From Schmidtea polychroa (Eukaryota), in NCBI GenBank assembly GCA_044892525.1, contig CM097886.1, forward strand, positions 5,084,001 through 5,148,000: 64,000 bases of DNA, given 5' to 3'. Each line of letters opens with the position of its first letter. Position 1 is the stretch's first letter. Made by a program: the position numbers and the translations under genes. The notes beneath the pieces are model-generated. The model was not told the DNA's origin and ran no database searches. It worked only from the letters and a program-made list of their open reading frames with translations. Positions 1,659-62,459 of this stretch are shown here, in pieces.

Positions 1659-1697
1659 AACCTGATGATGATAGTGATTCTATCGAAATATATAGTG
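1659..1697 (+). ncRNA. Minimal type I hammerhead ribozyme, family H (extra U after A9)
   Basis: aac-CTGATGA-t-GATAG-tgatt-CTATC-GAAA-tatata-gtg. The core is intact, stem II has 5 bp and stem III is the palindrome ATATAT. Predicted cleavage is after 1694; stem I is weak. Confidence 0.7.
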
Positions 1698-3393
1698 AAA
1701 AAGATGTACGAATGGAAATTTTTAAAAATTTAAAGTATTTTCTTCGTTGATTTTCAATTCATAATTTTTATAAATATTCTGTTTGAGACTTTCACATTTT
1801 AAAATTACATTCTACTTATAGTTTAAAAAATTATAAATTTTCACATATAAAATGTCTGAGATAACATTATGTTATTGAATAAATCGTGAACTTCTCCTAT
1901 ATAGTATGTGTCTAATCAGGATTTGCTTTTTTGGGCATAGAAATTTATTTGTGTATGTGCGTTGGCCTAATTACTATATAATTTACACCTAATTCCAATG
2001 AATAAAAGAGTCTATAATACACGCTGGTGTGCACTCCAATTGTAGGTGCTCTCCATTTTTGAGAAAATGAAGTTTGTAAGTTGATTTATTTAATTTTAGA
2101 AATGGCTTTCAAGTAAGCTTTTTAATTTTAAGGCTTGAATGTTGATTTTATATAATTATGAAATCATTATTGATGTTCTTAAATATTACGTTTAGTCACT
2201 ATTTGTATTATAATTTATTTTTAATTACTTTTCAGGTTTTTTAGGAATTTTATGAAATTTATTTTAGAATTATTTTGGAATTATTTCGATATAATGTAAG
2301 TCAGATCAATTCTGAATTATTTAATAAAGAAAATAATCACCAAACACATTAATTTTTTTAATACATTCAAATTTTATTAATCTTCGCCATTTTTGAAGAC
2401 ATCAATTAATCGAATTTTTTCATGTTCTGATTCTATTAAAATATTATTTTTGTTAAATTAAGTTAATAAAATTCACAATTTCCCCCTCGAAATCAAGAGG
2501 TAGAAGGACCTGGTTGAATATTTGAAATTTAGCCTTCACAAAAATAAGAGTTTTAAAAGAAATATCTGAAAAACTGTAAAAAATTTAAATTATTTGTAAT
2601 TTCATGAATTAATCTTACATCAGCTCTTCATCTTCATAAAAAGGCAACGTTTCCCATTTAAATTGTAAACAATTTAATTTGCTTTGAATATCCAATTATC
2701 ACTTATAACTAACTATTACAAAGAAAATATTTCCTAAACTAGACAATGAGATATTTGTTTTCATTATAAGTATACTGATGATAATATCTGAAATTCTAAA
2801 GAAATACTAAATTTATAAATAATCTTATAAATCTTACGAAGATTTTTCGTCTTTTCTCTACAAAAACTTTCTCAAAAACTTTTCCACGATGTTTTTTTGA
2901 TAAATTGGAAATAATAGTATGTTAATCACATTTATTCATTAAAATGAAAAAGCCTCTCAAAAATTTACATGTATTTTTTATTGTGTGTTGTGTTTGTATG
3001 TAAAATTATTTTTCTACCACTTTCAATTTTTATATCATAACTTATTCATTAAAATATTACATTTTTACACACAGATAAGTTAGTGTGTTCCTATACTATA
3101 ACTTTATAGATATTTTTAGATTATAGAAACTTCTATTTATTGAAATTAGGTGAAATGCTCGACGTGTCTGTGTTTGGTATTTTTGCTGCGCTTAGGTTGG
3201 ATTAATTTAATGATTTATTATAATTTTATTTATTAAATCTTTGAGATCTAATGCTTTGTTTTAAATTTGTAAAGTTTTTTCTCAAGTTTATTTTAAATAA
3301 ATTTATTAAAATGAAGGTAAAATGATCAAATTATTTTGATCCATAAAATTTAATTATATAAAATCAATGAATTACTAGCACTGATTATCAATA

Positions 3394-3687
3394 TTTTTGG
3401 AATATATGTCGAAGTTGAATTTCAACGATGAACTACGTGTTATAAAAAATTCTGGAATCATTTGCATTATTGGATCCCCAAATAAATCTGCTACAGTTCT
3501 TCACAGAACGATTTCTGTTTGAATTAATGCTGCTTGTTTGAATTTTAGTCATGGAACTTATTAATATCATGAAGAAACAATTAATTTATTGAGAGCAGCA
3601 GTTGATATATTTGGACCGTATTTCAGAACAATTGCTATATCCCTGGACACAAAAGACCCAGAAATTAAACCTAGTCTTATATATGGT
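3394..3687 (+). pseudogene. PK: Pyruvate kinase N-terminal fragment, decayed
   Basis: FLEYMSKLNF...SGIICIIGS...INAACLNFSHGTY*YHEETI...IAISLDTKDPEIKPSLIYG matches the PK motifs IICTIGP, NFSHG and LDTKGPEIR. Stops at 3520 (TGA) and 3562 (TAA); no frameshift or intron over 98 codons. Confidence 0.88.

Positions 3688-6501: not shown

Positions 6502-6557
<56 letters not shown>
6502..6557. repeat. (TA)n microsatellite
   Basis: Read directly from the sequence. Confidence 0.98.
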
Positions 6558-7905: not shown

Positions 7906-8244
7906 TTTACTTGTTGTAAACATAAAGTCTCATTGCAATATCATTTATATTTTCTTTTTTTTCGCAGTTTGCTTTTTGCTAGTAACTTTCTGATTGGAGC
8001 ATGCACAATTTAAATAAGTAGGGGACACTGTTTTAAATATGTTGTTCAAGATTAGGATTTGATCCTCTCTTATTAAAGAGTCTGGCGAATATTAATTATT
8101 TATTTTAAAAATGTAAATAAATTATATTTATAAAATAAAAAGTATTCTCGTATAATTGTCAAACCTTTGTCTTGTCAAGATTTTGCATGTTAGATGTTTC
8201 TTCCAAGTTCTTACATTTTATTCTTTTAACTATATTGAAATATT

Positions 8245-8422
8245 AAAGTGGTAATTTAAGCCTTCTGCTGCGAATAATGACTTAATGAAAAAATGTCGAC
8301 TATAAGGATTATCTTATAGTCGAAAATATTTTCAATCAAATACATTATTCACAGCAAAAAACTTAAATTATCACTTTATTGTTATAAATAAAAAATGCTG
8401 CTACCAAGAAATCATCACTTTA
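8245..8422. repeat. Palindrome-plus-tail element, family A, copy A1
   Basis: Inverted arms centred near 8310, then the tail atgctgctaccaagaaatcatcacttta. Confidence 0.8.
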
Positions 8423-10059
8423 TATATTGAAATATATTCAAAAAATAGCCTAATTTGACACATTATAATGTCTCTTTAGTCTGTCTGAAACTGATGTCCT
8501 AAATCCTATCAAATCACCTGTTTTGATTTGACATTTTGAATTTTGTTAGAGTTTTTACATATTCATGACGAATGATTAGAATTTCTCCAAGTTTTCACCA
8601 AAGATCTATCAATTGAGCTTTAGACATCCATGAAGTTTCAACAAAAGTTATTCTATATCTACTTTTGGAATATCTTTTCCACAAAAAGTCCGTTAATACC
8701 GAAAGCAGAACAGTCAAAACTTCGCGTAGTTCAAGTAACTTGGTAATAAATTTGTTTAATTTTTTTATTACTTCGAATCCATAGAAAGTTTGCGGTTGCC
8801 ATTTCTAATAAAATTTACGCATTTCAGAAAAGGTTCACTGTTCACTTATTGAAGGTTAAAACTAATTTTATTGTTTTAATTACACCTCATTATAATTAAT
8901 AGCCAATAAATCGAAAATCTTTTTTTTCCCCAAAGTTTTTAAACAAATTTTTATTTTTGCCATAATTGAAAATATGTTGATTAAAATATACTACTTATGA
9001 ATTTGCTCTCATTTTTGTTGTTGAACATTGAAGAGATCTTGAAACGGTTTTACAATTTATGAAAACCTTTTTTTAGAATTCCCCCATCTCTTGTCTAATC
9101 CTTTTCACCTATTTCAACTTGCCTATTTTATTGCTATTTCTTTCTATTTTCTTTAATTGGAAGGTTGGCAATTTTTAACCTTAACAGTGGCAATATTATT
9201 TATGGCAATTAGAAAATTTAATATAATATCAAATTCTTTTCGGCATTTCAAAGCAAAATCTCAAATAAATAATATAAAATCGGGAATTTCTGCACAAATA
9301 TTATTTTCGTATATAATTCTACAATATTTATGGATTTCATTCTCATTTCTTTTTTCATAAATAATTCTAAATTTTTTTCTCTGAAAATATAAATTAATAT
9401 TAAGTTAATAAACTAAATTCAAAATTTTCAAAAATTCATTAATTTGCTTGTATTTATCCACGTGTAATTTATTTGAACATGAAAATTTCCAGACTTGCAA
9501 AACGTAAAACGAAGCAAAAACATTTGGCAAATATGTAAAATCCGAGTAATATTGTAGAAAACTTTGCTCTTTTAAAACTATATAAAATATAATAACNNNN
9601 NNNNNNNNNNNNNNNNNNNNNNNNNNNNNNNNNNNNNNNNNNNNNNNNNNNNNNNNNNNNNNNNNNNNNNNNNNNNNNNNNNNNNNNNNNNNNNNNNNNN
9701 NNNNNNNNNNNNNNNNNNNNNNNNNNNNNNNNNNNNNNNNNNNNNNNNNNNNNNNNNNNNNNNNNNNNNNNNNNNNNNNNNNNNNNNNNNNNNNNNNNNN
9801 NNNNNNNNNNNNNNNNNNNNNNNNNNNNNNNNNNNNNNNNNNNNNNNNNNNNNNNNNNNNNNNNNNNNNNNNNNNNNNNNNNNNNNNNNNNNNNNNNNNN
9901 NNNNNNNNNNNNNNNNNNNNNNNNNNNNNNNNNNNNNNNNNNNNAACATAAATTTAATGTTAAACAAGTAAATGATAAGATAATGATTTAAAAATAATGA
10001 TAAAATAATGATTTAAAAGAAAAATATTTGATTATTAAATAATCATTTTCAATTTCTCG

Positions 10060-12092
10060 AAATTTTGTATTTTTTGTTGCATAAAAGATAAAGAAATCAG
10101 AAAAAAAATCGAAATGAAAGATCTTAAAACGTTGGAACAGATTAAAGAAACTATAAAGAAGATTGAAAAAGTTAACAAGGTTATTAAACAAGTAAACACT
10201 GTGAGACCAATACGACCTACAACTTGGGAAAGAACTTATAGAAATGTGGTAGAAGTTGAAGCGACGAAAAATCAGCAAATGGAAACCAGATACAAGGATA
10301 AAGTTATAAAATGCTGGACGTGTCGAAAACCCGGATACAGTAACAGAGAATGTAATATGAAAAGTTCACATACGAAGAGAATGCCCAACAATCAAATATC
10401 ATAGATGCAATGCACGAGGACACAAATAAAAAAAGTGCTACACAAATATGGAAAGACGAAATCAAGGAAGAGATCGAGACAAAGGAAGAAGTCAGGAGGA
10501 AGAATTCAAAGAAATACTTATCAAAATCAAAGACAATGGGGAAATCAACAATATAACAGAAGAGATATTGCAGCTATCGAGTCTGATGATGAGATGATAA
10601 ATACAAAACATTCAAGCCAGCCAGACGAGTATAACAGGGAGGATGACCCAAACGAGCACGCTCCGCCAAACGGGACATTGATCGAAGCAATCTACTAAGT
10701 AATTTTGATTTCAAGCAAATGATAACCGTATGTGTATTTTATGTATGTATAATGATTGTATGATTGATGAAGACTGTAGTGTTTTTGAATGTGATATAAA
10801 TAATAGTGGTAAAATAAATAAACCAAATATATATAATAATAATATTATTAATAATAATGGTAGTGTAGAAATCAAAATGTCGAATGACAAGGAAATTCAG
10901 AAAAAATTAAAAGAGGAGTGTAAAGTAGATGAATTAGTAAAACATGATGGAAGGATTACAGAGTATTAATGAAACTGTAGAAGATACTAGAGAGCAGAAT
11001 ATTTTGCCAGTAGAAGAACAAAAAAGACCAGTAATAACATGTAATAAATGCAAGGTAGACCGAGTACAACACTGGATATCCAAGGGCGGAAAGTAAATTG
11101 CTTATTGGATACAGGAGCGCGAATTAATGTGATGGCTAAATCTGTAATTGATCGATTAGAAAATATCGAGATAATATAAACAAGTGAATCGCTAAGATGT
11201 GCAAACAACAGTAGATTAGAAACTATGGGTAAAATAAACACCAATGTTAAAATGGGCGATAGTGAAAGAAATGTAACATTCATTATAGTAAGGAATATCA
11301 TACCAGAAATTATCGGAGGAGTAGAACTCCAAAGGTTATTTGGTATAGAATTAAAATGTATACGACAATAAAATGGAAAACGTAGTGATTTCATTTGCGA
11401 AATAGAAGCTAGATTTGGGCGGATTATAACAGATAAAGAAAGATTACCTCATGCCATCGACGTTTTAAAGGTTACTGCAAATAAGAGACTGTTAGAAATA
11501 TTTCAGTCGAACAAGAACGTTTTTATGGCAGATAAATGGGATATTGAGTGTACCAATCTCATTAAACATAAGATCATCACGAAAGAAGAGCCAATAATGA
11601 TTAAACTAAGACGTCAACCAATAAATTTGGAAGACAAGATTGAGGAAGCAATAAAAAATCTAGAAAACAACGGAATAATTAGGAAGTGTAATTCACCGTG
11701 GAACACATCTTTAGTTTATGTATGGAAGAAAGAGAAAAGAGACATCAGGCTTTGTCTAGACTTCAGACAATTAAAAAAGATAACAGAAAGACAAGCATTT
11801 CCAATGCCAAATGTAGATGAAATTTTAAACATCCTACACGGATCCAGATATTTTACCTCGATCGACTTGAGAAATGCTTATTACCAAGTGAAGTTAGATA
11901 AGGAATCTCAAGAGAAAACAGCATTCTCAACAAAAGAAGGACAGTTCTGTTTTAACAGGATGCCGTTCGGTATTGCAGCGGCACCAGGAACATTTCAAGA
12001 ATTAATGACGAAAGTTTTGAAAGATTTGTGAAAAGATGGAGTGATGGTATATTTAGACGACATACTAATATTCACAAAGACAGAAGAAGAAC
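10060..12092 (+). mobile_element. Decayed Ty3/Gypsy retrotransposon E1 (gag end, protease, RT up to YLDD)
   Basis: CCHC remnants (CWTCRKPGYSNREC; CPTIKYHRCNARGHK), gag stop at 10696-10698, CLLDTGARINV at about 11100, RT ORF 11525-12031 (CLDFRQL, TAFST, RMPFG) and YLDD at about 12050. Truncated at 12092; no LTR seen. Confidence 0.92.
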
Positions 12093-12250
12093 GTATTTTC
12101 GGCACTGCCTTTTTTATCACGTTACTTCAAATTCAAAAAAAAAGCCAGTGCCGAAAATTCGAGAGTATCAACAAACATCGATATATTATTGATTTATAAT
12201 CTTCAAGCTCTCTTTTTAATAAATTCAATAAAAATCAAAAGTTTACAATC
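12093..12250. repeat. Palindrome-plus-tail element, family B, copy B1 (left arm truncated)
   Basis: ttttcggcactgcc...gccagtgccgaaaattcgagagtatcaacaaacatcgatat, homologous to 20864-21055. Confidence 0.8.
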
Positions 12251-41015: not shown

Positions 41016-42200
41016 TCCCCCCTGTTTAAAAGGCTTTAGCCATTCTACATTTCGAATCATTGTTTTACCTTCTTTATCCATAAGTTCGTAACTTCTATCA
41101 TGTAGTTTTTTTATCACTCGAAAAGGTCCTCTGTATCTATCATCTTCTTTTTTTCTTGTGTCTATCTTTACTAAAACGTTGTCATCTATTTTAAATTCTC
41201 TATTAATTCTATCTGCGTTTCTGTACTTAACATTTCTTTGCTTTTCTTGTATCTCTTCAATGATTCTAATTCGGTCATTAGTAACTTCCTTTTTGTTTTG
41301 CCATTCTCTTGTTATTCGAAACCCAAATACTATTTCCGCTGGACTTTTCCCTAATGTACTTTGTACGGTTGCGTTCAAAGCAAATTCAATTTCTGGTAAT
41401 ACCTCTACCCAATTGCTTTTTAATCTATCTTTAATTGAGGTACTCATGAAATCTCTTATTGTTCGAAATTGCCGTTCTATTAATCCATTTGCACTATGAT
41501 GGTATGGACTTGAAAATTGAAGCATTATGTTATGGGTTTTAGCTAATTCTTTCATCACACCTGATTCAAATGTCTTCCCACAATCTACTTGAATTATCCT
41601 AGGAGAACCGTATTTTAGAATCCAAAATTTCATTATTGTGTCCGCTGTTGTTTTCTCATCTTGCTTAGAAACTGCTGTAAGAGAAATATATCGAGTGCAC
41701 ATATCAATAATTCCTAAAATATACTTTTTCCCATGTACACTTGTTTTCAAAGGTCCACAAAAATCTATAGCAATTGTTTCAAACGGTTTCGACACTTCCG
41801 TTTTTAGTATAGTTTCCTTTATTTTAGTTGTTAGTGTTTTTCTTTTTTGACATAATTCACAATTTTGAATAATTTCTGTAGTTATCATTTGTAATTCATC
41901 CATGTCATAATTTACTTTTATGTAGTCAATCACTTTTTTGCAACCTGCGTGGCATAGGATTTTATGCATTTCTTTGATAAATTTTTCGCGATTGTTTTTA
42001 GGAATCCAAATTTTATTTTCTTTTGTCATGATAACATCATCATCAATCTTAAATTTAGTTTTTACATTTTTCATGATTAGTTCTTTTTGATTTTCTATCT
42101 CAACATTACCCTTTTGCCAAATCACACCTTGCTTAACAGCTGTCATTGTTAAAAGTCTTGTTTTCATTTTTTCTGTTTTAGGATTTTCATGAACTTCCAT
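40983..42200 (-). CDS. Integrase part of E2 pol (separated from RT-RH by a 1-nt frameshift)
   Basis: HHCC (HKILCH...CELC), catalytic IAIDFCG / QVDCG / LIERQ, and GPF module; no chromodomain. The ORF ends inside the 3' LTR. Confidence 0.93.
   Translation of the reverse strand: MEVHENPKTEKMKTRLLTMTAVKQGVIWQKGNVEIENQKELIMKNVKTKFKIDDDVIMTKENKIWIPKNNREKFIKEMHKILCHAGCKKVIDYIKVNYDMDELQMITTEIIQNCELCQKRKTLTTKIKETILKTEVSKPFETIAIDFCGPLKTSVHGKKYILGIIDMCTRYISLTAVSKQDEKTTADTIMKFWILKYGSPRIIQVDCGKTFESGVMKELAKTHNIMLQFSSPYHHSANGLIERQFRTIRDFMSTSIKDRLKSNWVEVLPEIEFALNATVQSTLGKSPAEIVFGFRITREWQNKKEVTNDRIRIIEEIQEKQRNVKYRNADRINREFKIDDNVLVKIDTRKKEDDRYRGPFRVIKKLHDRSYELMDKEGKTMIRNVEWLKPFKQGGCEEDLIISTI
41016..41027 (-). 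promoter_or_regulatory. Polypurine tract of E2
   Basis: AAACAGGGGGGA on the minus strand, directly abutting the 3' LTR. Confidence 0.85.
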
Positions 42201-44509
42201 ACATTGAGTACATCGTCCACACTTATCTCTGATAATGCATCTGCATTGGTATGTTCCATACCTTTTCTAAATGAAATATCCATATCCAAACTGCTAAGAA
42301 AATTTATCCAAGTTTGGAATTGTGCCGTGATTGGCTTTTTTGTTGCCATCATGAATGTTATTGCTTTATGGTCCGTTCTTAATTTAAATTTTTTCCCATA
42401 CAAATAATGTTTAAAATGTTGAGTAAAATAATAAATGGCCAATAACTCCTTCCTTGTTATACAATAACCTATTTCATGCTTATTCATTGAATGCGAACCA
42501 TATGCAATTACTCGCTCATGTCCCTGTTCGTCTAACTGTGATAACACCGCACCAATTGTGTCAAAACTTGCATCAGTGTCCAAAATAAATTCTTTCTGAA
42601 AGTTAGGGTATATTAATACTGGTGTTTTCGATAATGCATTTTTTAATTCTTCAAATGCTTCTTCACATTTTTCTGACCATATAAGTTTTTCATTAGTCGT
42701 ACCACATATAGACTCTAATATTCGTGAAAACATTGAATAATTTTTTATAAATTTTCTACAATAATTACACAACCCCAAAAAACTTCTTAGTTGTTTCAAA
42801 CATTGAGGTCTTACAAAATTTTTAATTGCTTCAATTTTATTTTCATCCACTTTCACACCTTCATTATTAATTATATGGCCTAAAAATTTTGTCTCATTTG
42901 TTAAAAATATACATTTTTCTGGATTTACTCGTAATCCCGCTTCCTTAATTTTCATTAATACTTCATTTATTCTTTTAAAATGCTCTTCTTTATTTGTAGA
43001 AAATATTAATATGTCATCCAAATATACAATAGCTGTATTCCACAGAAGTTTTCCTAAAACCATATTCATTAGTTTTTGAAATGTAGCCGGTGCCGCAGCA
43101 ATTCCAAAAGGCATTCTATTAAAACAGTACTGTCCGCTCCTTGTTGAAAATGCGGTTTTTTCTTGTGAATTATTTGTTAACTCCACTTGATAATATGCAC
43201 TTCCAAGATCTATAGTACTAAAATACTTGGATCCATTGAGTGAATCTAACATTTGTTCAATATTAGGCATTGGAAATATTTGTCTTTCTGTTATTTTATT
43301 TAGGTTTCTAAAATCCAAACACAATCTGATGTCATTCTTTTCTTTTTTCCAAACACATACCAATGGAGTATTCCAACTCGAATCACATTTCCTAATAATA
43401 CCATTTTCTTCCAAATTTTTTATAGCCTCCTCAATCTTTTCTTCTAAATGAGCCGGTTGTCGTCTAGGGTTCATGTAAATTGGGCCCTCAGTAGTTTTGA
43501 TTTCGTGCCATAATAAATCTGTTTTTCCAATGTCCCATTTATCAGCCATAAAAACTTCTTTATTTTCATTAATTATCTGATACATTTTATCTCCTTTTTT
43601 TAAATCAAATAATTTTATTGCTCGACTAAATCTTTTCTCATCATTATATGAGTTGCTAAATCTTGCCTCAATATTACAAATTTCATTAAAATTATTTTCT
43701 ATTTCCGTATTTTCAGTTATACTATCGTTTATTTTCATTAACTTGATGTTGAATTGACGAAGTAAATCTATCCCACCAATAATTGACGGTGAAACCTTTT
43801 TAACAACAACAAAAATCACATTCTCTTCTTTGTTACCGATTTGAATCTTCAATTTAACATTGCCAAATGTTTCCAATGGACTGCCATTTGCACACCAAAT
43901 TCCTTCATTGTGAGGTTTAATATCTATCTCACCTATTTCTTTGATGATCGAGCTATCTATTACATTCATTCTAGCCCCCGTATCCAATAGACAATGTTTG
44001 AAATAAATCCTATTAATCCCAACTATTACGCTTGGTCTTCCACCCATCTTATCATATACAATTTCTAAATCGTCATTTAAAACAGAAATATTATTTATAT
44101 GTTTATCCAATGTTTCGTCATAAACAAACCTTTTACTGCTATTTATTAATTTTGCCTCACAAATACTTATTATCTTCTTACAATTCTGATCACATTTATT
44201 TTCAATTACATTAATTTTATCACGCATCCAATTACAATCATTAATATCAGTTTTATCTCTTACGTCATATATAATCTTACTGTTACTCTGATTATCTTCC
44301 TTTATTACATCATATTTTTTTAATTTACTTTTCACGTTTTTAATACTATCTTCTAAAATTACATCTGATTTAAATCTAATATTTTTTACCTTTAAATTTG
44401 ATTTAGATATACTGTCTAAATTATTATTACTACTTTTAAAATTATACATACTGTCTAAATTACTATTACTATTATTATTAAAAAATATACTATACTTATC
44501 TTGGCGCAC
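42164..44509 (-). CDS. pol: E2 pol: aspartic protease, reverse transcriptase, RNase H
   Basis: CLLDTGARMNV; CLDFRNL, RMPFG, VYLDDILI; LDTDAS, KELLAI, TDHKA, NADALS. Confidence 0.96.
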   Translation of the reverse strand: MRQDKYSIFFNNNSNSNLDSMYNFKSSNNNLDSISKSNLKVKNIRFKSDVILEDSIKNVKSKLKKYDVIKEDNQSNSKIIYDVRDKTDINDCNWMRDKINVIENKCDQNCKKIISICEAKLINSSKRFVYDETLDKHINNISVLNDDLEIVYDKMGGRPSVIVGINRIYFKHCLLDTGARMNVIDSSIIKEIGEIDIKPHNEGIWCANGSPLETFGNVKLKIQIGNKEENVIFVVVKKVSPSIIGGIDLLRQFNIKLMKINDSITENTEIENNFNEICNIEARFSNSYNDEKRFSRAIKLFDLKKGDKMYQIINENKEVFMADKWDIGKTDLLWHEIKTTEGPIYMNPRRQPAHLEEKIEEAIKNLEENGIIRKCDSSWNTPLVCVWKKEKNDIRLCLDFRNLNKITERQIFPMPNIEQMLDSLNGSKYFSTIDLGSAYYQVELTNNSQEKTAFSTRSGQYCFNRMPFGIAAAPATFQKLMNMVLGKLLWNTAIVYLDDILIFSTNKEEHFKRINEVLMKIKEAGLRVNPEKCIFLTNETKFLGHIINNEGVKVDENKIEAIKNFVRPQCLKQLRSFLGLCNYCRKFIKNYSMFSRILESICGTTNEKLIWSEKCEEAFEELKNALSKTPVLIYPNFQKEFILDTDASFDTIGAVLSQLDEQGHERVIAYGSHSMNKHEIGYCITRKELLAIYYFTQHFKHYLYGKKFKLRTDHKAITFMMATKKPITAQFQTWINFLSSLDMDISFRKGMEHTNADALSEISVDDVLNVWKFMKILKQKK

Positions 44510-44529
44510 ACAATCATCATTATTACCTT

Positions 44530-45693
44530 TTAATGCATGGCTCCTATCATCTCGCCTAATGATGGAGCCCTCCCATTTGGGTGTCCATCACTTCGGGTAG
44601 ACTGAGAATCCTCCGCTTCGTTTCCGCGGTCTTCCATAGCTGCCACTCTTCCATCGGCATATCTGTCTTGATATCGTCTGTTATCCTCGTAATTTCTAGA
44701 TTGGTTTCTTCCTGATGATCGTGTGTCTGCTGTTCCCCAACATTGAAACCGCAAATGACCACGTTTTCCACATCCTGAGCATGAAATCGATGGACATTCT
44801 CCCCGGTGATGGCCAGATTCCTTACAAGCGTTGCATCTCAATTCTGAATTTATCTTGTTATTTTTACATTCTCTAATCATGTGTCCTTCTTTTCCACATC
44901 CATAACACTTCTTTTTTGGGCATTCTCGACTCGAATGTCCTAGTTCTTGACAATTCCAACATGTAACAACGCGACTTCCACTTGCTCTGTTGTCTCTATG
45001 GTAATACTGTTGATTAGTATTCCTTCCAGAATCGAAGCTTTGAGCGTGCGGAATAGAATTGAATCTTGGTTCAAAATTTCGTCTTTCTTGAACATTTGAA
45101 AAATTGCGTTGTCGATCTTGTATATCGGCAAATCCTTGTCGTTTCTTTATTACGTTTGCGAACGTTTCTTTTCTTTGCATAACTGCAATACTAGAAACTT
45201 CAATGTTGATAGCATCAACTTTACGAATTACGTCCTTGATCTCTTCGACTTTTAAAGCATCTCGCATCTTGATCTCTTTTTGGATTTCTTTGTCTTTGAC
45301 ACAATGTATCAAAAAATAAGCGACTAATTCGTTTTTATCCCACTTGTGTTTCAATACTTTGTCGACCATTTTCTCAATCTTTTCGAAAAACACTGGCGCT
45401 GCATCGTTATCTTTCTCATAATTGTATAAGTTCAGAAAATCGCCTATCAGTGTTGACGGCTTCTTGAAAGCTTCTCTGAGTCTATCTTCAAAATTAATAA
45501 ATTTGACATCGACGGCTTCATAAATCGGTAAAATATCTCTTGAAATAAGGCATTTTATCATCATATTTTGGTTATCTTGATCTAACCCACATAACTGAAA
45601 ATATCGCTTACATTCTTCAATGAAAGTTTCGATTTCGTGTCTTCCGTCGTAAACATCCGGAATCATCTTATTCACTATTGCCAGGGTCGCCAT
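44530..45693 (-). CDS. gag: E2 Gag with four CCHC zinc knuckles
   Basis: 387-aa ORF containing CWNCQELGHSSREC, CYGCGKEGHMIREC, CNACKESGHHRGEC and CSGCGKRGHLRFQC. Confidence 0.96.
   Translation of the reverse strand: MATLAIVNKMIPDVYDGRHEIETFIEECKRYFQLCGLDQDNQNMMIKCLISRDILPIYEAVDVKFINFEDRLREAFKKPSTLIGDFLNLYNYEKDNDAAPVFFEKIEKMVDKVLKHKWDKNELVAYFLIHCVKDKEIQKEIKMRDALKVEEIKDVIRKVDAINIEVSSIAVMQRKETFANVIKKRQGFADIQDRQRNFSNVQERRNFEPRFNSIPHAQSFDSGRNTNQQYYHRDNRASGSRVVTCWNCQELGHSSRECPKKKCYGCGKEGHMIRECKNNKINSELRCNACKESGHHRGECPSISCSGCGKRGHLRFQCWGTADTRSSGRNQSRNYEDNRRYQDRYADGRVAAMEDRGNEAEDSQSTRSDGHPNGRAPSLGEMIGAMH
45679..45692 (-). promoter_or_regulatory. Primer binding site of E2
   Basis: TGGCGACCCTGGCA immediately after the 5' LTR, complementary to a tRNA 3' end ...CAGGGUCGCCA. 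Assignment to tRNA-Arg is a guess. Confidence 0.85.
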
Positions 45694-45937
45694 GTTAAAT
45701 AAAACTAGAAGTCGAATTCAAATTATATTCAAAAATTATAACAATATCGGTTTGACTAAACAAATCCTTAAATTGACGATTAAGCATTTCTAAATAATAA
45801 TAATAATTATGTACGCCATAATATAATACGAATATAATACTTTAATATATGTATATGTTAATTTCTTAATAGTAATAATTCAGATGTAATTTATTATTAT
45901 AATATTATATTGTGCTAATAATTAAATCTTCCTCACA
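45693..45937 (-). repeat. 5' LTR of E2
   Basis: Direct repeat of 40771-41015. Confidence 0.97.
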
Positions 45938-50677: not shown

Positions 50678-50820
50678 ATTTAAGCCTTTCATTGCGAATA
50701 ATGTATTTTGTGAAAAATTTTAAATCTTTTTTCATTAAATACATTATTCACCGCAAAAGGCTTAAATTATCACTTTATTGTTTTAAATAATAATGCTGCT
50801 ACCAAGAAATCATCACTTTA
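50678..50820. repeat. Family A copy A4 (centre deleted)
   Basis: atttaagcctt...aaggcttaaat plus the tail atgctgctaccaagaaatcatcacttta, followed by a short (ATT)n. Confidence 0.8.
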
Positions 50821-53800
50821 TATTATTATTATTATTATTTTAAACTTTATAATAATAATTATTATTAATAATCATTAATAATAATATACATAATAATAAT
50901 TAAATCAAATTAATATAAAAATGAGTTTAATATTGGTATTGATGAAGACTGACAGACTTTGGGTTATGTCTAACATTCGACTGTTTCTGGGTTATTATGA
51001 ATGTAAAGGTTACTGTTTGGATTTGTACACAAAACAACTGTCATAATCTTTAGTCTATTCAATGACAACAGTTTCAATGAGATTCACTATTTTAAATAAT
51101 TAAAATATCTTTGAAACACAAAAATATTTTTTTATAGAGTTTGATTTATATTTTTTCTGCTTCAGATTTTGATTGCGGTAAATAATTTTTTTCGGATTTT
51201 ACATATATATTATGTTGAATGATAAAATGTCAACATATTTGACTGCCTATCATTCATAGGAAAGTCTTATAACTTTTCAATTCTCAAAATCCGTGTAATA
51301 TAATGCATATGAAAGAAGGAAATTGTTAGAAACCTAATTCCAATGAATTCTTTCAATGAAGTAAATAGAAACAACTGAGTGAATTACGATGAACAATTTA
51401 AATTAGAAATTGTAAATATAATTTTTCAAAATATTTTATTACCATTTTAATTTGTTTTAATCATCGTGTTTAATTGTAACAAATAAAGCAGAAACCAGAT
51501 TCTAACCATGATAACCAATTACATCACTAAATGATTGGAAATTTGTTTTATTGAAGCGTGTTTGCAGTCAGTTAAAAAATTATTAAAATTTTGTTTTATC
51601 GACTTCTCCTACAATTTGTTAGTAGAGATGGATTTAATTACTTCAATATGCTTTGACTACCTTTTGACAGACATATATCTTGACATAAGCTGTAAGATAT
51701 TAAAGTAACATAGATGTACATTCTGAATATTTCAGGATAATATTAAGTCACAAAATGTTATACCAACAATGAAACTAAACCATAAAAGTTAGAATTTAAA
51801 AAAGAATAATGCAATATTGAATCTTTTTTATTACAGAAAATAATACAAAAACAAAAATAAATTGAGTAAAATTAATTATTACATGTTGATCTGTATAATT
51901 GTGAAATTATTATTATAAATAATTAAATTCTTTATAACTGACTTTATTTCTGAAAACTTATAACTAATTTGGATGCAAATAAAAAACCTTAATTAAAATT
52001 TACATTTTTTTAAACAAAAAAGAATTTCGAAATAAGTAAAAATTAATAAATTATATAAAAATATTTAAAAGTATCCCCTACAGCATTGACTCTTAAACTG
52101 AACTTGAATAATATTTAAACTGTTAGTTTGAACTTTATGTTCATTAAAACGAAATATAAATTTTCCCCCAATTTCAAAATCTTTAAGAAATTTAATGAAA
52201 TCGAAAAAAATATCAAAAATTATCAAAAAATACCGATATAATAATTACCAGTCTATTTATATATATATATAAATATTAAAATATGTCATTCCGATGAATA
52301 TGTAATTGCTGTAATTACTTTCGGCATTTTTCTTTTTTTTACCGATTTAATTAACATAATCTTGAGTAAATACTTTGACTAAAATCTTCCCAGAAAAATC
52401 AAACGGGAGAACTTAACGGAAAAAAAACATTAGAAATTTTCCTGAGGCTGTGCTCGACTTTGAAGCCTAACGGTAGACTAAAATAGAATTCATTATTAGT
52501 TAGTAATTATTTGATCCTTGCTGAATTATCAAATATGTTGGTTATTGTAAAATTTATGCAATTTGAAAGTTTCTTATTACTATTTATTAAACACCTGATA
52601 CGTCCTAAAAATACACAATCTCTTTACCATTTACCGTTCTTACTTCTAGCAAAGTCCTTTGTCAATGAAAAAAATTGAATATTAATTATAATAATATCAA
52701 TAAATAATAGTNNNNNNNNNNNNNNNNNNNNNNNNNNNNNNNNNNNNNNNNNNNNNNNNNNNNNNNNNNNNNNNNNNNNNNNNNNNNNNNNNNNNNNNNN
52801 NNNNNNNNNNNNNNNNNNNNNNNNNNNNNNNNNNNNNNNNNNNNNNNNNNNNNNNNNNNNNNNNNNNNNNNNNNNNNNGGTAGTAGCATAAATCAAATGG
52901 TAAACAGTAAAGGTTAATATTAATAATCCTTAGTGGCAAAATATGTACTAAATGAGAATATTTTCGTTTTATATTTTCATTTTATTGTTATATATCTATG
53001 AAATTATAAAATAAGAAATAGTTCAAAAATATATTTCAAAAAATAAGTATTATTGAAACAATTTAAAAATATGTTAATTTTAAATTCTTCACAATAAAAA
53101 TTTTAAATTATAATATATGAATTAGATATTAATTTAATCCATATAACATTTATATTTTCAATTTCTTAAAGAAAAAGATAGTTTTCTCATTTAATACATA
53201 TTTTGTAGCAAAGGCTTATTTTATCATTTACCTTTTAACAAATAACATTAAAATAATAAAAATAATAATATTAGAGATATTAATGAAATTAATTTTTTTT
53301 ATTTTATCTGAAATCGTTTTAGCTAATTCATTTATAAATTAAATTAGAGACTGCAGATAATATCTGTGTTAGCTGATAACAGCAAAAAATATTTCCCAGG
53401 TTCATATAAATTATTATTAAAATAATTTCCACATTGACTGTTGAAAGTGAATAACCAAATCCATATAATTTGATAAACAATTTCTCAAAAAAGTAACGTA
53501 AACAAATTAATCGACATTAAATAAATATTGCTCAAGTAAATTATTTTCAAATAATGAAAATTACCTTGTCAATCCTAACTATTTACATTCATCATAAATT
53601 ACATTTTAAAATTATTAATTCATCCAAATGTTCATTTCTGATACAATGTTAGCATTTATTAAAAGTTGGAATAATTAAATTAAATAATTTCCGATCAATT
53701 TTGTTTCTATTTTTATTTTTATTTTTATTATCATGTGAAATGTTTAGATCAACAAAAAAAGAGGAACAAAAACAAATGACAAAATTAGAAAGTTTTTGAA

Positions 53801-54360
53801 AATTTTTTTAAAATTAAAACAAAATAAATAAAGATAACTTTTTAATGTGATATTATCGGTATTTGAATAGACATATGTTGAAATATATTGCGCATTTTAT
53901 CTCATGGAAACCAGTTCAGTTCAACTAAACAAAAATATCGTTTTTTTTGTTAAAAGAAAATTTCAAAAAATATTAAATTGATCTCAAATGGCAGATAGCT
54001 ATTCAAATTATCTAAATTATCTCTCTTCACTGAATTATAATGGTTAGGAAAGATTATATTTTCTGGTTAACATGAATGATAACATAGAATGACGTGAACA
54101 AGCTTTGTTTTGACAGATAAGAAAATTAAGTCTACATTTATAAATTATGCATTTATACTCCGTTTTCCNNNNNNNNNNNNNNNNNNNNNNNNNNNNNNNN
54201 NNNNNNNNNNNNNNNNNNNNNNNNNNNNNNNNNNNNNNNNNNNNNNNNNNNNNNNNNNNNNNNNNNNNNNNNNNNNNNNNNNNNNNNNNNNNNNNNNNNN
54301 NNNNNNNNNNNNNNNNNNNNNNNNNNNNNNNNNNNNNNNNNNNNNNNNNNNNNTTGTTTT

Positions 54361-54399
54361 CACGATATATTTCGACATTTTTCTTGTCATCATCAGGTC
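54361..54399 (-). ncRNA. Hammerhead family H copy
   Basis: Minus strand gac-CTGATGA-t-GACA-agaaaaa-TGTC-GAAA-tatatc-gtg. Confidence 0.72.
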
Positions 54400-54790
54400 G
54401 GATATAATAACTATATAAATTAAGGATTTCTAAATTAATTAATTATTCATTATATAACAAAATCTTTTTAATTTCATTCTATTAAAAATTATAATTAAAA
54501 TAACACATTATCTTTTAAATTTTAACATTTAGAATTTAATTTTATAGTTTATTAATTATTTAATTTAACAATAAAATCAATAAATACAATATACAAAAAA
54601 TTATTTAAAAACATTTAAAACACAAGTATTCACTGCATTCTGCACATTAATTTTCGGATTCAATGACTTATTCAATAACGAGTCACAAATTACATGTTCC
54701 CAATAATTATCAAAATTTCTTATATAATTAATAATTAATACAATTAATAATTTTGTTTAAAAATCCTTAATTTATATAGTTATTATATCC

Positions 54791-54829
54791 TACCTGATGA
54801 TGACAGGAAAACTGTCGAAATACATCGTG
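54791..54829 (+). ncRNA. Hammerhead family H copy
   Basis: tac-CTGATGA-t-GACAG-gaaaa-CTGTC-GAAA-tacatc-gtg. Confidence 0.75.
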
Positions 54830-55030
54830 AAAAGAATGTTTTGGCGCTTTCTTACTATTAAATNNNNNNNNNNNNNNNNNNNNNNNNNNNNNNNNNNNNN
54901 NNNNNNNNNNNNNNNNNNNNNNNNNNNNNNNNNNNNNNNNNNNNNNNNNNNNNNNNNNNNNNNNNNNNNNNNNNNNNNNNNNNNNNNNNNNNNNNNNNNN
55001 NNNNNNNNNNNNNNTTTATTATTTACAAAA

Positions 55031-55168
55031 ATAAAGTGATAATTTAAGCCTTTTGCTGCGAATAATGTATTTAATGAAAAGATTTTCAACAATAAGATAG
55101 AAGTACTATCTTATTGTCGAAAAGTTTTTCATTAAATATATTATTCGCAGTAATAGGCTTAAACTATC
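55031..55168. repeat. Family A copy A5
   Basis: Arms centred on acaataagatag-aagta-ctatcttattgt; gaps on both sides. Confidence 0.82.
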
Positions 55169-57639: not shown

Positions 57640-57834
57640 CACTAGATTTATCAGGCCAGTCAAAATGACTGGTTTTACAAATTTTTTTGAAAGTCCCTAA
57701 GTAAATTTTTTTCTGCGACAATGACTTTTGTAGTGATAATACAATAAATATCATTAAAAATGTTTTTGATTACCATTGGTACTTATACCTATACCAGTCA
57801 AAATGACAAATGCATTTTGACGGTAAATCTATTG
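57640..57834. mobile_element. piggyBac-like MITE (195 bp)
   Basis: TIRs cactagatttatc / ggtaaatctattg (11/13), flanks TTTA and TTAA, and subterminal CCAGTCAAAATGAC motifs at both ends. Confidence 0.6.
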
Positions 57835-59118
57835 TTAATTGTTAATGGTAGCAATTTTTGTAAGAAGAAAAAGTCGTGTTATGTTTTAACCTCCGTGAAT
57901 ACATATAATTTGTTGGTTGTATCTTTTACTTAACCTTTTTGTTCCAACATTTTCAAAATGCACAAAGCAAAATTTGTAAATCTGTATTAGATAATATTGA
58001 TGAAAATATGAAATTTCTCTGATGCTAAAATGCACAAAAAGACACTGGAATAAGACCGTAACATTGGAATTACATTGATATTATCTCATTATTATCCCAG
58101 TATTATAACGAAATCATCTGAAAGTATTGCCTCAATAAGCGCTAATGAGTTAATAAAAATTGTTTATGCCAAAATTTATTAAAAATAATTGTCTGAACTG
58201 ATCGAAAAACTCTTTATTGTTACAAATTACTACAATATTTTGGTCAAATCCATAAAACAATACCTATAATATTGTTATTTAAATCACGTCTTATTAACAT
58301 CTGGTACAGATAGCTATTGATGTGTATACCACATCAATTCAACGCAAGGGTAAAATTTATAATGAGAACATTAAACACCTTTTAAGGCAATGAGATAATA
58401 CTATTAAAAGGAGAAGTAAGGAAGTTGATTAAAAAAGAATTGTTTCAAAAAAAGGAGTAGGTCATAAATTGTGCCATACCGAATAATAACTTAGCAATAT
58501 GATTTGCCTGCAAAATAGAATGATCTTACATGAATCTTTCGTTCAAATATAGAAATCATTATTTATATTATGCTACTTAGAAAGTGACGAACCGGTAGAA
58601 AATTAAGTAAAGAAAAAATAAGTAAAAGAAATGTTCACTTCTTTATATGGTACATGTATGTCTCATTCGTAGTTTAAGAGTTAAATTCATTTGAAATATT
58701 TCTAAAACATATTAAAATACGATTCTTTTGAATTATAATATGTACGTTGGTATTGGATTACCACCCTCGAATCCCTAGTGCTTTCATTTGACATACCTTT
58801 TATCACTGTCAAAGCACAGAAATTTGAAATAACTCTATTGGTTAATATTAAATTATATAAAAAACAGCATTCTTAGTTTTTTTGGCATAGATTAATATAA
58901 CATTTCAATAAAATTAAAATTAATTTATTTAGTAGAAATTTTCTAATTGTAATAAAGCATGAAAGCATGAAAACTTCTTTTCTGTTCCTTTCAGACAAAT
59001 TACCTCAAAACATTTTACTACAAATTATTTAACAAACAAATATTCTTAACAATTTCAATTTATAATATATTCAATAAATATTTAAAATTTATTGGAAAGC
59101 GCCTTCAAACCAACCTTT

Positions 59119-59152
59119 TACGATATATTTCGACTGTCTCACTGTCATCATA
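59119..59152 (-). ncRNA. Degenerate hammerhead family H copy
   Basis: Minus strand atgat-GACAG-tgaga-CAGTC-GAAA-tatatc-gta; the CUGAUGA core is damaged. Confidence 0.45.
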
Positions 59153-59254
59153 AAATTTAAGTAAAAGAGATATATCATTTAAATGAAACGATATCGTGTG
59201 ATTTGAAAAAATTTTTAAAAATTTTAAATAACTTTAAAAAATAAATTATAAGAT

Positions 59255-59587
59255 ATCGCTAATCAAACATTCTTTTCACGATATATTTCGACAGTTTTCC
59301 TGTCATCATCAGGTGGTATATAATAACTATATAAATTAAGGATTTTTAACAAATTTATTAATTATATAAAAATAATTTTTTATTTAATAAAAACATTTAA
59401 TTATTTTTAAAAATTATAAATTAAATTAATATATTATTTTTAAAATTTTAGCATTCAGATTTGATTTAATAATTTAAAAAAAATATTTTTTTTATTAATT
59501 ATTTAATTTAACACAACAATCAATGCATCAATATAAAAAAATTATTTAAAAACATTTAAAATACAAGTATTCACTGCATTCTGCACA
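59255..59587 (-). repeat. Repeat unit of about 330 bp carrying hammerhead family H
   Basis: Collinear with 54355-54647 up to the shared boundary acaagtattcactgcattctgcaca; partial copy at 62400-62560. Confidence 0.8.
59277..59315 (-). ncRNA. Hammerhead family H copy (best preserved)
   Basis: Minus strand cac-CTGATGA-t-GACAG-gaaaa-CTGTC-GAAA-tatatc-gtg: 3-bp stem I, 5-bp stem II and palindromic ATATAT stem III. Confidence 0.8.
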
Positions 59588-60573
59588 GTTTTATTATCTC
59601 GATTTTCTTTAAAATTCAAATTATATTTTCAATTTTTAAATTATAATACTCACACCTCACACGGTGAATTACCAGTTGATCGAAGAGCGAATTAAACAAA
59701 AGGAGGAAGGGTAAAGTAGACTCTACATAAAAGTTACAGTCAATGAAACAGTGAAAATTATATAGATAAATATAGGCAGTTTCAGTTTGAGATCTTTAAC
59801 CTGAAATTATCAATAAAAAGTACGAAAAGTGTAGTTAACTATATTGTAAAGATTTGATTGAGTTTCAATAAATTATTCTGTGTTCGGTCTTATTCGATCA
59901 ACTTAAATAAATAACACAATATAACAATTAAATCATTGATATTTTTATTTCATTGTTTATTTTTAAAATTATTTATATTAATCATGATATTATAAACCAA
60001 AGGTTGATAAAAAAATTATATCTCCCATTATTGATTGTATCTTAGTTTTTCTTTGTTTTCATGCATCACTTTAAATGTTCTTTAAACGATTGTTTAAAAT
60101 AAGTTCATATTTAAAATGTTTAATAATTGAGGATGTTAAAATTAATTTTTATTTATATATATTTTTATAAATGTTAACATGAATGATGATAATATTCATA
60201 TAGGACATTGAATTTTCTACAAATTCTAAGATGGCATCAATTCACAAATGAAATTTGCAGTGTTTGTGAAGGTGCTGTCACAGTTAGAACTTTTCATTAT
60301 AATCATTTAAAAAACAACTTAAGTATAATGAAACGAATAATGAGATATTATATTAATTTTTTCTTATCATTCATAAAGTATCATAACCTTGAAAGCTACT
60401 GATTTTATTTTATATCTTTAATTATTATTGTTGTTAATATGGATTTTTATAAAGGATTTATTATAGAAAATATTTATTATTTTCAACCGACGCATTAGTA
60501 CAGAAATAATGACTCACATAAGACGTAGGAGAAAATCATAATTTTAAACAAGGAAATAACCATTTATTTGTTA

Positions 60574-60687
60574 TTATAAGAACTTTTTTTCAAATTTCAC
60601 CACTGATTTCATTTCAATTGACATTGTATTTATTTAAAAGCTTGTCTTTGAATCAGTAATTATATCGATGTTTTCGATATTATTTGT
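60574..60687. repeat. Family B copy B5 (reverse orientation, collapsed)
   Basis: tataagaacttttttt...caccactgattt...gaatcagtaattatatcgatgttttcgatat. Confidence 0.7.
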
Positions 60688-62420
60688 TAGTATAGAGTTG
60701 ATTTATAAATTATAGGTTTAAAGTGGTAAGTCAAAATTTTTCTGCTTCATATTCGTGAATTTCTTTGAAAGGTTCGTTTGGAATAATGATAAAATCTTTT
60801 GAGATCCAATCTTTTCGAAGAAACTGTTGCAAACCCATTTTTTTATCAAAAAAAACAATTATAACCTGAAAAAAATGCATAAAAAAATGCTAATTTTGTA
60901 AATTTTATGTTTCATGTAGTTTCCATTATTGTAATTGACAAGACAAACTTATTCTCAAAAATAGATTTAAAAGTAAAAATTCGGTTCTTTCAATATCTCT
61001 AATACCAAAGGATGCTAATGGAACATTTTCTTGAAATCTGTCAAAATCTATCCATTCTATCCATTCATTTTACTACACTGATTTTTTTCATTTTGCAAAG
61101 AATCTTATGATATGCTTGCCAATATTTACATATTTATGTGTTTTCTACACTTAGTGAATTTGAATAAAAAATAATTTATTTAAAAAAAATATTATTTATT
61201 TGTCAAGAAATAATTAAATATTAATATTTGTAGTATTATTGGAAATATGATAGTTTTCAATTAATTCTTCGAAATTCATTTGTATTTTTTTGGGAAAATA
61301 TTATATTACCAATCAAAATACATATTAACATCCCTCTAAATATATTCAAGGATTTACAGAAATATTTTCTTCCTAAATATAAATTAATGAATTAAAATAA
61401 ATTAAAAGTTAATTAAATAAAATGATTTGAAACCTTTAATGTGTTCGTTATTTAATTACTAAAACTCAGCAATGTTGAAACTTTGTATAAAATACGAATT
61501 CGATAAAACAATTGATATAACAAATAATTTAAAAATAAATTTTTCAAAATGGTTATTTTTAAATATTTTACAATTTTTTTTTATTTATTTCGTATTAGTT
61601 GTTGTGTTTACTTTAATTAAATTGCCAATGGAAAATTCACACCTAATTCTTTCGGTCAAGAATATCGTAAAAATACCGGAAAAAAGGCAAATATACATAA
61701 TAATAAAAATATTTAGTTTCATTTTGTTGAATGTACTTTTCTGTAATAGGGAAAATTTCCGAACAAATTACAGGAAGAAAGTTAAAGAAACATGAAGCAT
61801 AAATAGAGAATAGTCCCACAGTTTTAGAGGAGATAGACGCCACTGACAGCCATCATATTATATAGAATATGATAAAGTTAAGTACAAGCATTTGAAAGTT
61901 TTATCTGATATTAATAAAATAAAACAAGCAGAAAATCACCCTATCAAAGGGTAGGATCAATTATTATTGAAATGCACTATTAGCCCCCATATATTCTGAC
62001 ATTAATCAATTTGATCTAGATGTAGAAATTAATTGAATTTCATCAAAATTTCAACCCAATTTATCAGCAGGATGATTTCCTTCTGATACCAAAACATGTA
62101 AAAACTTATAAATTGGTTTTTCAAAACAAAAATATTTTTTTTTGGTTTCTGCTGTGATATTTTATAAATCTATTTTTAACGGAATATTTTAAATAAGCAA
62201 TTAAAGCGCAATCCTATCAATTATCAATTCAGAGCATTATTTTTAATTTAACACTAAATTTCGGCACTGCTTTATTTTGTGAGATTGCTAAAATTCCTTG
62301 GCCGAAATGAAAATAAGAAAATAGAAAAAAAAACAGCAGTATTTATAAGTAATTAAGAGAATTCTTAAATATTAATAATATAATAAAAATCATAAGATAA
62401 CGCCAATCAAACATTTTTTT

Positions 62421-62459
62421 CACGATTAATTTTGACAGTTTTCCTGTCATCATCAGGTG
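62421..62459 (-). ncRNA. Hammerhead family H copy, probably inactive (G12 changed to A)
   Basis: Minus strand cac-CTGATGA-t-GACAG-gaaaa-CTGTC-AAAA-ttaatc-gtg. Confidence 0.6.

What the first reader, a model, noticed from the sequence alone, without database searches (positions are those of the whole stretch)
1659..62459. Dispersed family of minimal hammerhead ribozymes with an extra core U and covarying stems
Seen: five copies with an intact CTGATGA (1659+, 54361-, 54791+, 59277-, 62421-) and one degenerate copy (59119-) of CTGATGA-T-stemII-GAAA-N6-GTG. Stem II shows a compensatory double change (GATAG/CTATC vs GACAG/CTGTC) with a variable loop. Stem III is a 6-nt palindrome in four of the five copies and switches between ATATAT and ATTAAT. 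Established: minimal type I hammerheads with weak palindromic stem III occur in Penelope-like pLTRs and retrozymes and cleave as dimers, and an extra nucleotide between A9 and G10.1 is tolerated in some viroid/satellite hammerheads. Inference: this is a high-copy ribozyme-bearing retroelement family with an unusual AUC/AUA cleavage triplet and a short stem I. No ORF-based annotation would see it.
Basis: partly seen in the sequence, partly recalled or inferred. Interest (0 to 1): 0.8.

Follow-up and report, generated by a model that had tools for sequence, protein, structure and literature searches.

The report
Penelope retrotransposon minimal hammerhead ribozymes
These are real but ordinary self-cutting RNA motifs that sit at the ends of Penelope-type jumping genes in a flatworm genome, of a kind already described, and their only extra interest is that they overlap the start of the element's own protein gene.

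Summary
The motifs are real: 4 exact matches in the window against 0 in 100 shuffles, and 3,898 genome-wide against 5 for a reversed control. They are the pLTR hammerheads of Penelope/Poseidon-type Penelope-like elements (PLEs). Intact 2,771-bp units with an 857-aa RT + GIY-YIG ORF flanked by two motifs exist elsewhere in the genome; the window holds truncated and inverted ends. Stems covary across seven family representatives (70 of 70 cells paired; 0 of 500 shuffles as high). The extra core nucleotide and the palindromic stem III are in the published PLE minimal-hammerhead consensus (Cervera and De la Pena 2014). D. virilis Penelope has the same AUAUAU palindrome, AUC triplet and 2-bp stem I, and a Schmidtea example is listed there. 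The 62456 copy lacks G12. The motif is not ORF-free: it overlaps the ORF start. In U-type families A9-U-G10.1 is an in-frame AUG, which cleavage would remove; a sister clade has A there and its first AUG just after the cut. Cleavage was not tested. The scan noted a Penelope hammerhead before on other DNA. New member of a known kind.

The parts
1034..1419 (-). Inverted fragment of the family-B PLE RT region, joined head-to-head to the 3' pLTR
   Evidence: tblastn to aa 469-595 of the intact ORF, 77%; 94% DNA identity to family-B locus L152
1413..1706 (+). Family-B 3' pLTR (3' UTR, hammerhead, first codons of the ORF)
   Evidence: 85% to L152 over 298 nt
1660..1696 (+). Minimal hammerhead, family B: C3 at 1662, extra U, 5-bp stem II, palindromic stem III, AUA triplet, 2-bp stem I; predicted cut after 1694; core complete
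54354..54729 (-). 5'-truncated family-A PLE end (last 40 codons of the ORF, 3' UTR, hammerhead); its 3' end runs into an N stretch
   Evidence: tblastn aa 818-857 at 54723-54604, 82.5%; 78% to L140
54361..54399 (-). Minimal hammerhead, family A: C3 at 54396, core complete, stem II reduced to 4 bp; predicted cut after 54364
54712..54863 (+). Inverted, 5'-truncated second pLTR of the same insertion (typical PLE head-to-head arrangement)
   Evidence: 80% to the L140 pLTR; inverted repeat I4
54791..54829 (+). Minimal hammerhead, family A: C3 at 54794, core complete, stem III palindrome broken; predicted cut after 54826
59116..59160 (-). Degenerate hammerhead relic: C3 and G5 changed to U, one mismatch in stem II; predicted dead
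59244..59587 (-). 5'-truncated family-A PLE end, short-tail form (ends about 36 nt after the cut site)
   Evidence: 79% to L140; end position
59277..59315 (-). Best-preserved minimal hammerhead in the window, family A1: C3 at 59312, extra U, 5-bp stem II, AUAUAU palindrome, AUC triplet, 3-bp stem I; predicted cut after 59280
62388..62564 (-). Short 3' pLTR fragment of the young subfamily A2
   Evidence: 97% to L140
62421..62459 (-). Hammerhead of subfamily A2 (AUUAAU palindrome) with G12 changed to A at 62433; predicted inactive
21191..21531 (-).
   Evidence: Rfam HH9 24.4 bits, E 0.11, below the gathering score; 97.7% to the 383-bp tandem unit of L133

Best explanation
The motifs are the minimal type I hammerhead ribozymes of Penelope/Poseidon-type PLEs. 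Shown here: the element is a tandem unit (2,771 bp in family A, 2,862 bp in family F) with one RT + GIY-YIG ORF. The hammerhead sits in the pLTR, so it appears about 200-300 nt after the stop codon and again over the ORF start. Most genomic copies are 5'-truncated ends, often with an inverted partial copy. At least six families keep the same fold by compensatory changes. Inferred from published PLE work: the monomer folds poorly, so cleavage is weak and conditional. It needs a second copy to form stem III through the 6-nt palindrome, and/or help from the PLE protein bound just downstream. Reverse transcription starts inside the RNA at two sites about 35 and 70 nt after the cut site and mostly uses uncut RNA. 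Cleavage is therefore a side branch that trims tandem read-through transcripts and, in families A, B, C and G, removes the core AUG from the ORF; it is not a required step of insertion.
For: Intact ORFs of 857 aa between two motifs 2,771 nt apart in L140-L142, 99.8-99.9% identical to each other; RVT_1 E 1.7e-9 and a weak GIY-YIG match E 0.019. Covariation over 7 family representatives: 70 of 70 cells paired, 6 of 10 pairs with changes on both sides, 0 of 500 shuffles as high on cells paired, slid controls 19-46%. Family majority letters pair in 30 of 30 cells at five variable pairs, 0 of 100,000 permutations as high; two of those pairs join first-with-first or second-with-second codon positions, so coding alone does not explain them. 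3' ends of 78 family-A copies chosen without asking for letters after the cut: 33 at +26 to +46, 26 at +60 to +80, 15 run on into the ORF, 2 at +6 to +25, 2 with an internal deletion across the cut, none ending at the cut. This matches the PLE tail and the two RT start sites of PMC11167929. All 29 candidate hammerheads found in 26 of 80 distant PLE loci carry the extra nucleotide, 23 U and 6 A. The published consensus has it too.
Against: No cleavage data. No Rfam hammerhead model matches these six copies at E up to 5. Folding energy is unremarkable (z -0.6 to -1.1), and the predicted monomer folds pair core bases instead of forming the hammerhead junction. Stem I is only 2 bp in four of six families. 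The 7 representatives are related and were picked as intact examples, so the shuffle result is not a probability. 0 of 30 ORF-start-bearing copies begin at the cut site, so there is no genomic footprint of cleavage.
Confidence: 0.8

Rival explanations
1. The fold is kept but no longer cuts in these families. Stem II and the palindrome serve as a protein-binding or dimerisation signal next to the RT start sites, and the core letters are kept partly because they encode the ORF's N-terminus.
For: No genomic trace of cleavage at 5' or 3' ends. H17 is the third position of an Ile codon, so A/C/U there is also what coding allows. Weak stem I and G10.1-U11.1 in families F and G. In PMC11167929, catalytic mutants did not impair insertion in vitro.
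Against: C3, U4, G5, A6, G8, A9, G12, A13, A14, A15.1 and U16.1 are invariant in all 7 representatives while stems and peptide change. In two distant loci the core is in another reading frame and still complete. The related Anolis motif cleaves when its protein is added.
Confidence: 0.12
2. The ribozyme is mainly a translation switch: an off-switch where the cut removes the start codon (families A, B, C, G) and a start-generating cut where the first AUG lies 3-6 nt after it (families D, F).
For: In-frame ATGs relative to the cut: family A -51, -30, -27, +9; family F only +6 after an in-frame stop at -81. Families D and F have A instead of U at the extra position (19 of 19 copies) and form one clade (92/98). 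A viral type I hammerhead cuts 7 nt before a start codon, and cleavage can drive cap-independent translation (PMC13725137 passages).
Against: The D/F change is one evolutionary event. In distant loci the start codon lies elsewhere (in stem III at -5 in 2 of 3 usable 5' copies, +50 in the third), so no register is fixed. Simple scanning of uncut RNA would also reach the +6 AUG. No expression data.
Confidence: 0.15
3. The copies are a non-autonomous retrozyme or SINE-like family with no ORF of their own.
For: The window copies are short and carry little or no ORF.
Against: Shared sequence runs on upstream into the RT + GIY-YIG ORF with variable 5' truncation, and full units exist. The description fits only family E at 21293-.
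Confidence: 0.02

Closest known systems
Minimal hammerheads of metazoan PLEs (Cervera and De la Pena 2014, PMC4209133; main text parts 1-2 of 4 and supplement file 2 parts 1-2 of 3 read)
   Same: Type I core with one extra nucleotide between A9 and G10.1 (consensus CUGANGAH), G10.1-C11.1, palindromic stem III, short stem I, location in pLTRs, thousands of mostly solo copies, pairs on opposite strands. The listed Schmidtea mediterranea PLE motif (AAWT01060303) has nearly the same upstream flank and stem II as family G of this genome. D. virilis Penelope has AUAUAU, AUC and a 2-bp stem I.
   Different: The exact families in this window (A, B) are not among the 56 listed examples. Stem II is 5-6 bp rather than the 7-8 bp given for Schistosoma.
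Poseidon_Ac (PAc) of Anolis carolinensis (Frangieh et al. 2024, PMC11167929; parts 1-2 of 4 read)
   Same: [quoted passage not shown] Two RT start sites inside the ORF give the optional tail. Uncut RNA is the main template.
   Different: PAc cleavage was shown and needs the protein; nothing is shown here. Families D and F lack the core AUG.
Penelope/Poseidon clade PLEs, including A. vaga Penelope and flatworm Perere10 (PMC3846280 and PMC8557442, passages read)
   Same: Single ORF of about 850 aa with C-terminal GIY-YIG and CCHH motif, DKG motif, no conserved Cys linker, pLTR holding the first codons, 30-40 nt tail, inverted 5' pLTR.
   Different: No named reference sequence was available, so closeness to Perere10 was not tested by a tree.
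Non-LTR retrozymes (PMC7229834 passages; bioRxiv 10.64898/2026.07.22.740005 part 1 of 5)
   Same: Type I hammerhead with palindromic stem III in a repeat.
   Different: Retrozymes are short non-coding tandem units with canonical hammerheads. That fits family E (21293-), not the finding's copies.

Membership tests
Type I hammerhead ribozyme | Complete core C3 U4 G5 A6 N7 G8 A9 / G12 A13 A14 / A15.1-U16.1 / H17 | tested here: met
   Complete in 4 of 6 window copies; 62456- lacks G12, 59154- lacks C3 and G5. Invariant in 7 of 7 family representatives.
Type I hammerhead ribozyme | Stems I, II and III supported by covariation | tested here: met
   70 of 70 cells paired, 6 of 10 pairs with double changes. 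Stem I is supported for 2 bp only; two stem III pairs never vary, and the third changes once.
Type I hammerhead ribozyme | Site-specific self-cleavage after H17 | not testable with these tools
   Only contigs of public runs were available; they cannot show RNA ends.
Rfam hammerhead families (clan CL00010) | Match to a curated covariance model | tested here: not met
   No match for the six copies at E up to 5; only 21243-21311 matched HH9, below the gathering score.
PLE minimal hammerhead (Cervera 2014) | One nucleotide (A, C or U) between A9 and G10.1 | tested here: met
   U in families A, B, C, G; A in D, F (149 assigned of 158 motifs).
PLE minimal hammerhead (Cervera 2014) | G10.1-C11.1 pair; palindromic 15.2-16.2 region; short helix I | tested here: met
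   G-C in A-D, G-U in F and G; palindrome is the majority form in all six families; stem I 2-4 bp.
PLE minimal hammerhead (Cervera 2014) | Located in the pLTRs of a PLE | tested here: met
   Two copies flank the ORF in L140-L142 and L148-L149.
EN+ Penelope-like element | Single ORF with RT followed by GIY-YIG endonuclease with CCHH motif | tested here: met
   857-aa and 862-aa frames. RVT_1 passes its cut-off; Pfam GIY-YIG is below cut-off, but the motif residues align with homologues.
EN+ Penelope-like element | Partial tandems, inverted 5'-truncated copy, optional 30-40 nt tail | tested here: met
Penelope/Poseidon clade | No CX2-5CxxC zinc-finger linker between RT and endonuclease; C-terminal endonuclease; DKG motif | tested here: met
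   The linker is variable, and family A's cysteines are absent from family F and the homologues.
Penelope/Poseidon clade | RT phylogeny with named reference elements | not tested
   The homologues found are almost all unnamed.
Non-LTR retrozyme | Short non-coding tandem unit with a canonical hammerhead | tested here: not met
   The finding's copies are ends of a coding 2.8-kb unit. Family E does meet it: 383-bp unit, three in tandem.

The most novel reading that the evidence does not exclude
The PLE hammerhead controls translation of its own ORF, and the sign of that control has flipped within one genome. In U-type families the bulged U is the U of the start codon, so protein-assisted cleavage would cut off the AUG (negative feedback by the PLE protein). 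In the D/F clade that U became A, and the only nearby AUG lies 3-6 nt after the cut, so cleavage could create the translated RNA, as reported for some RNA viruses. Two young families with intact ORFs (A2 and F) would then be a natural pair for settling what PLE hammerheads are for.
Probability: 0.15. Interest if true: 0.6.

Novelty: new member of a known kind. Interest (0 to 1): 0.25.

Why it matters
As found, it adds about 4,000 or more copies in at least six families to a class described in 2014, in a lineage already listed there. Its practical value is as test material. The function of PLE hammerheads is still open, and this genome holds two young families with intact ORFs whose start codons lie on opposite sides of the predicted cut. 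If cleavage changed translation in opposite directions in the two, that would give the first functional role for these ribozymes.

Tried and rejected
RNA evidence: no RNA holder listed; only contigs were available, and they cannot show ends or strand. No conclusion drawn. Rfam: no hammerhead model matches the six copies. PDB sequence search with the ORF: 0 hits at E up to 0.01. Folding z-scores: not significant. Idea that the extra U exists only because it makes the AUG: rejected as a general rule, since families D and F keep an extra A and in L273 and L277 the extra-U AUG is out of frame with the ORF. Idea that cleavage sets the ends of inserted copies: 0 of 30 5' junctions at the cut (10 of 30 lie at +10 to +57, some of them duplicates, too few to interpret) and 0 of 78 3' ends. 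A first 3'-end count (54 copies) required three letters after the cut, so it could not see ends at the cut; it was replaced. Helitron or MITE origin: rejected once the upstream RT and GIY-YIG ORF appeared. Other CTGANGA sites in the window (for example 2775+, 10583+, 44712+, 50151-) lack the stem II/GAAA/UH layout. Some repeated genome-wide pattern hits (for example L080, L094, L251) show no PLE link or paired stem and were left out of the families. Two papers (Lunse et al. 2017; Arkhipova et al. 2017) are not held and are not used as evidence.

Full report
Observation. The pattern CTGANGATG-N(8-26)-CGAAA-N6-GT matches 4 times in the window, against a mean of 0.00 in 100 shuffles. Only these four have a complete core. 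The 62456- copy has G12 changed to A, and 59154- has lost C3 and G5. A seventh hammerhead at 21293-, without the extra nucleotide, was missed.

Host. The window lies in a 781-Mb eukaryotic genome and is 26% G+C. I infer a planarian of the Schmidtea type, because one family matches a published S. mediterranea motif (below) and mir-753 matches below threshold at 2124-2185 (that this family is planarian is recalled).

Copy number and context. The same pattern has 3,898 exact matches genome-wide against 5 for the reversed control. Patterns for other letters at the extra position gave 542 against 102, for no extra letter 1,824 against 777, and for another stem II start 306 against 5. The 30 best loci for the 59312 copy share a fixed downstream end and variable upstream extent. 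Upstream they run into an ORF with YVDD reverse transcriptase and GIY-YIG motifs. Three of eight long regions fetched (L140-L142) hold a complete unit: two motifs 2,771 nt apart around an 857-aa ORF. Pfam gives RVT_1 E 1.7e-9 and GIY-YIG E 0.019, the latter below cut-off. These copies are 99.8-99.9% identical, so subfamily A2 is young. A second family (F) has intact 862-codon frames in L148-L150. The alignment with seven homologues shows DKG, the CCHH residues and an unconserved RT-endonuclease linker, which places the element in the Penelope/Poseidon clade by the criteria in PMC8557442 (passages); no tree with named references was possible. In the window the copies are truncated ends: 1413-1706 (family B, with an inverted RT piece at 1034-1419), 54354-54729 with an inverted partial pLTR at 54712-54863, 59244-59587 and 62388-62564.

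Structure. Six families share a 16-nt spacer between A9 and G12: A, B, C, D, F and G. Of 158 distinct motifs in the fetched loci, 149 were assigned and 9 were not. On 7 representatives, 70 of 70 cells pair and 6 of 10 pairs change on both sides. None of 500 shuffles reached the paired fraction or the covariation score, and slid controls gave 19-46%. With the decayed window copies included, 97.7% of 130 cells pair. Family majority letters pair in 30 of 30 cells at the five variable pairs tested (0 of 100,000 permutations), including pairs between first or second codon positions. The families are related and the representatives were chosen as intact examples, so these are not probabilities, but coding alone does not explain them. 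Stem I is supported for 2 bp only. Monomer folding is unremarkable (z -0.6 to -1.1) and tends to pair core bases, as expected for a motif that needs a partner.

Comparison with what is known. [quoted passage not shown] Their consensus core is CUGANGAH. Their D. virilis Penelope motif has a 2-bp stem I, the AUAUAU palindrome and an AUC triplet; D. willistoni has AUA. Their S. mediterranea PLE motif has nearly the same upstream flank and stem II as family G here. They found no monomer cleavage and weak dimer cleavage for a Schistosoma example. In 80 distant PLE loci from metagenomes, 26 had a candidate motif, and all 29 candidates carried the extra nucleotide (23 U, 6 A), although the filter allowed none. 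So the extra U, the triplet and the short stem I are the norm.

Overlap with the ORF. In family A the ORF opens inside the core: A6-U7-G8 and A9-U-G10.1 are consecutive in-frame ATGs, and the predicted cut falls after codon 9 from the second one. Frangieh et al. 2024 (PMC11167929, parts 1-2 of 4) describe the same layout for Anolis PAc. They show that this hammerhead cleaves only when the PLE protein is present, that dead mutants still insert, and that reverse transcription starts at two internal sites that define the tail. PMC3846280 (passages) notes that the pLTR holds the first codons. The genome fits this. Of 78 family-A copies selected without asking for letters after the cut, 33 end at +26 to +46 and 26 at +60 to +80, 15 run on into the ORF, 2 end at +6 to +25, 2 have a deletion across the cut, and none ends at it. 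Of 30 copies (of 51 found) that carry the ORF start, none begins at the cut and 20 extend upstream across it. The template is therefore mostly uncut RNA.

Start codons differ between families. Families A, B, C and G have U at the extra position and thus the core AUG; C and G show no other Met in the roughly ten codons preserved after the cut. Families D and F have A (19 of 19 copies) and group together (92/98). In intact F the first in-frame ATG after an upstream stop is 6 nt after the cut, and in D it is 3 nt after. I did not find this contrast in print (searches), but it is one event. Distant relatives put the start elsewhere (-5, -5 and +50 in the three usable 5' copies). A translation role is possible (viral precedent in PMC13725137, passages) but unshown.

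Mechanism. Shown: identity as PLE pLTR motifs, RNA-level conservation, overlap with the ORF start, two 3'-end classes, no footprint of cleavage at copy ends. Inferred: weak cleavage after H17 that needs a second copy or the PLE protein, trimming of tandem transcripts, loss of the core AUG in U-type families. Not testable here: any cleavage or expression.

Verdict. A real feature, and a new member of a known kind. Interest 0.25. The most novel open reading, a translation switch whose sign differs between families A2 and F, gets probability 0.15 and interest 0.6 if true.

Noticed in passing
window 21191-21531 (-); L132-L134: Family E: a 383-bp non-coding unit with a canonical type I hammerhead, found three times in tandem and often as inverted pairs; it looks like a non-LTR retrozyme and dominates the 1,824 no-extra-nucleotide matches listed. 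Its hammerhead translates in one frame to a peptide resembling the PLE N-terminus, which fits a PLE origin; no parent ORF was searched for.
   Followed up: partly
window 21324-21339 (-): Sixteen nucleotides identical to the 5' end of the host's U1 snRNA genes lie 30 nt upstream of the family-E hammerhead core; present with at most 1 mismatch in 14 of 24 distinct copies. Either a captured U1 5' end or a perfect 5' splice site on the other strand. No upstream promoter similarity was seen, and one paper search found nothing relevant in its listing.
   Followed up: partly
window 40771-45937 (-): Young LTR retrotransposon: 245-bp LTRs 99.6% identical, with gag (zinc knuckle), protease-RT-RNase H and integrase frames of 395, 807 and 427 codons. 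Older relatives lie at about 11400-12100 and 19600-20400.
   Followed up: no
window 36465-38226: DNA transposon with 33-bp inverted ends and a 390-codon frame with a weak Tc3-type HTH match (E 0.02).
   Followed up: no
window 8235-8425, 21615-21830, 40537-40770, 50678-50900, 55015-55168; and 12091-12237, 20864-21054, 25524-25680, 60571-60685: Two families of short palindromic, MITE-like repeats. The 20867-20993 hairpin gives a below-threshold MIR7504 match.
   Followed up: no
window 2124-2185 (+): mir-753-like hairpin, 48.4 bits, E 1.1e-7, below the gathering score of 62.
   Followed up: no
L143:3824-6071: A family-A PLE copy whose ORF holds seven in-frame perfect tandem repeats of 321 bp covering part of the RT, giving a 1,193-codon open frame.
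   Followed up: no
L205, L206, L226: Three copies have their 5' junction at the same place, 23 nt after the predicted cut; possibly an endonuclease target or microhomology site.
   Followed up: no
L273:3-60 and L277:257-320: In two distant PLEs the first in-frame AUG lies inside the palindromic stem III, 5 nt before the predicted cut.
   Followed up: partly
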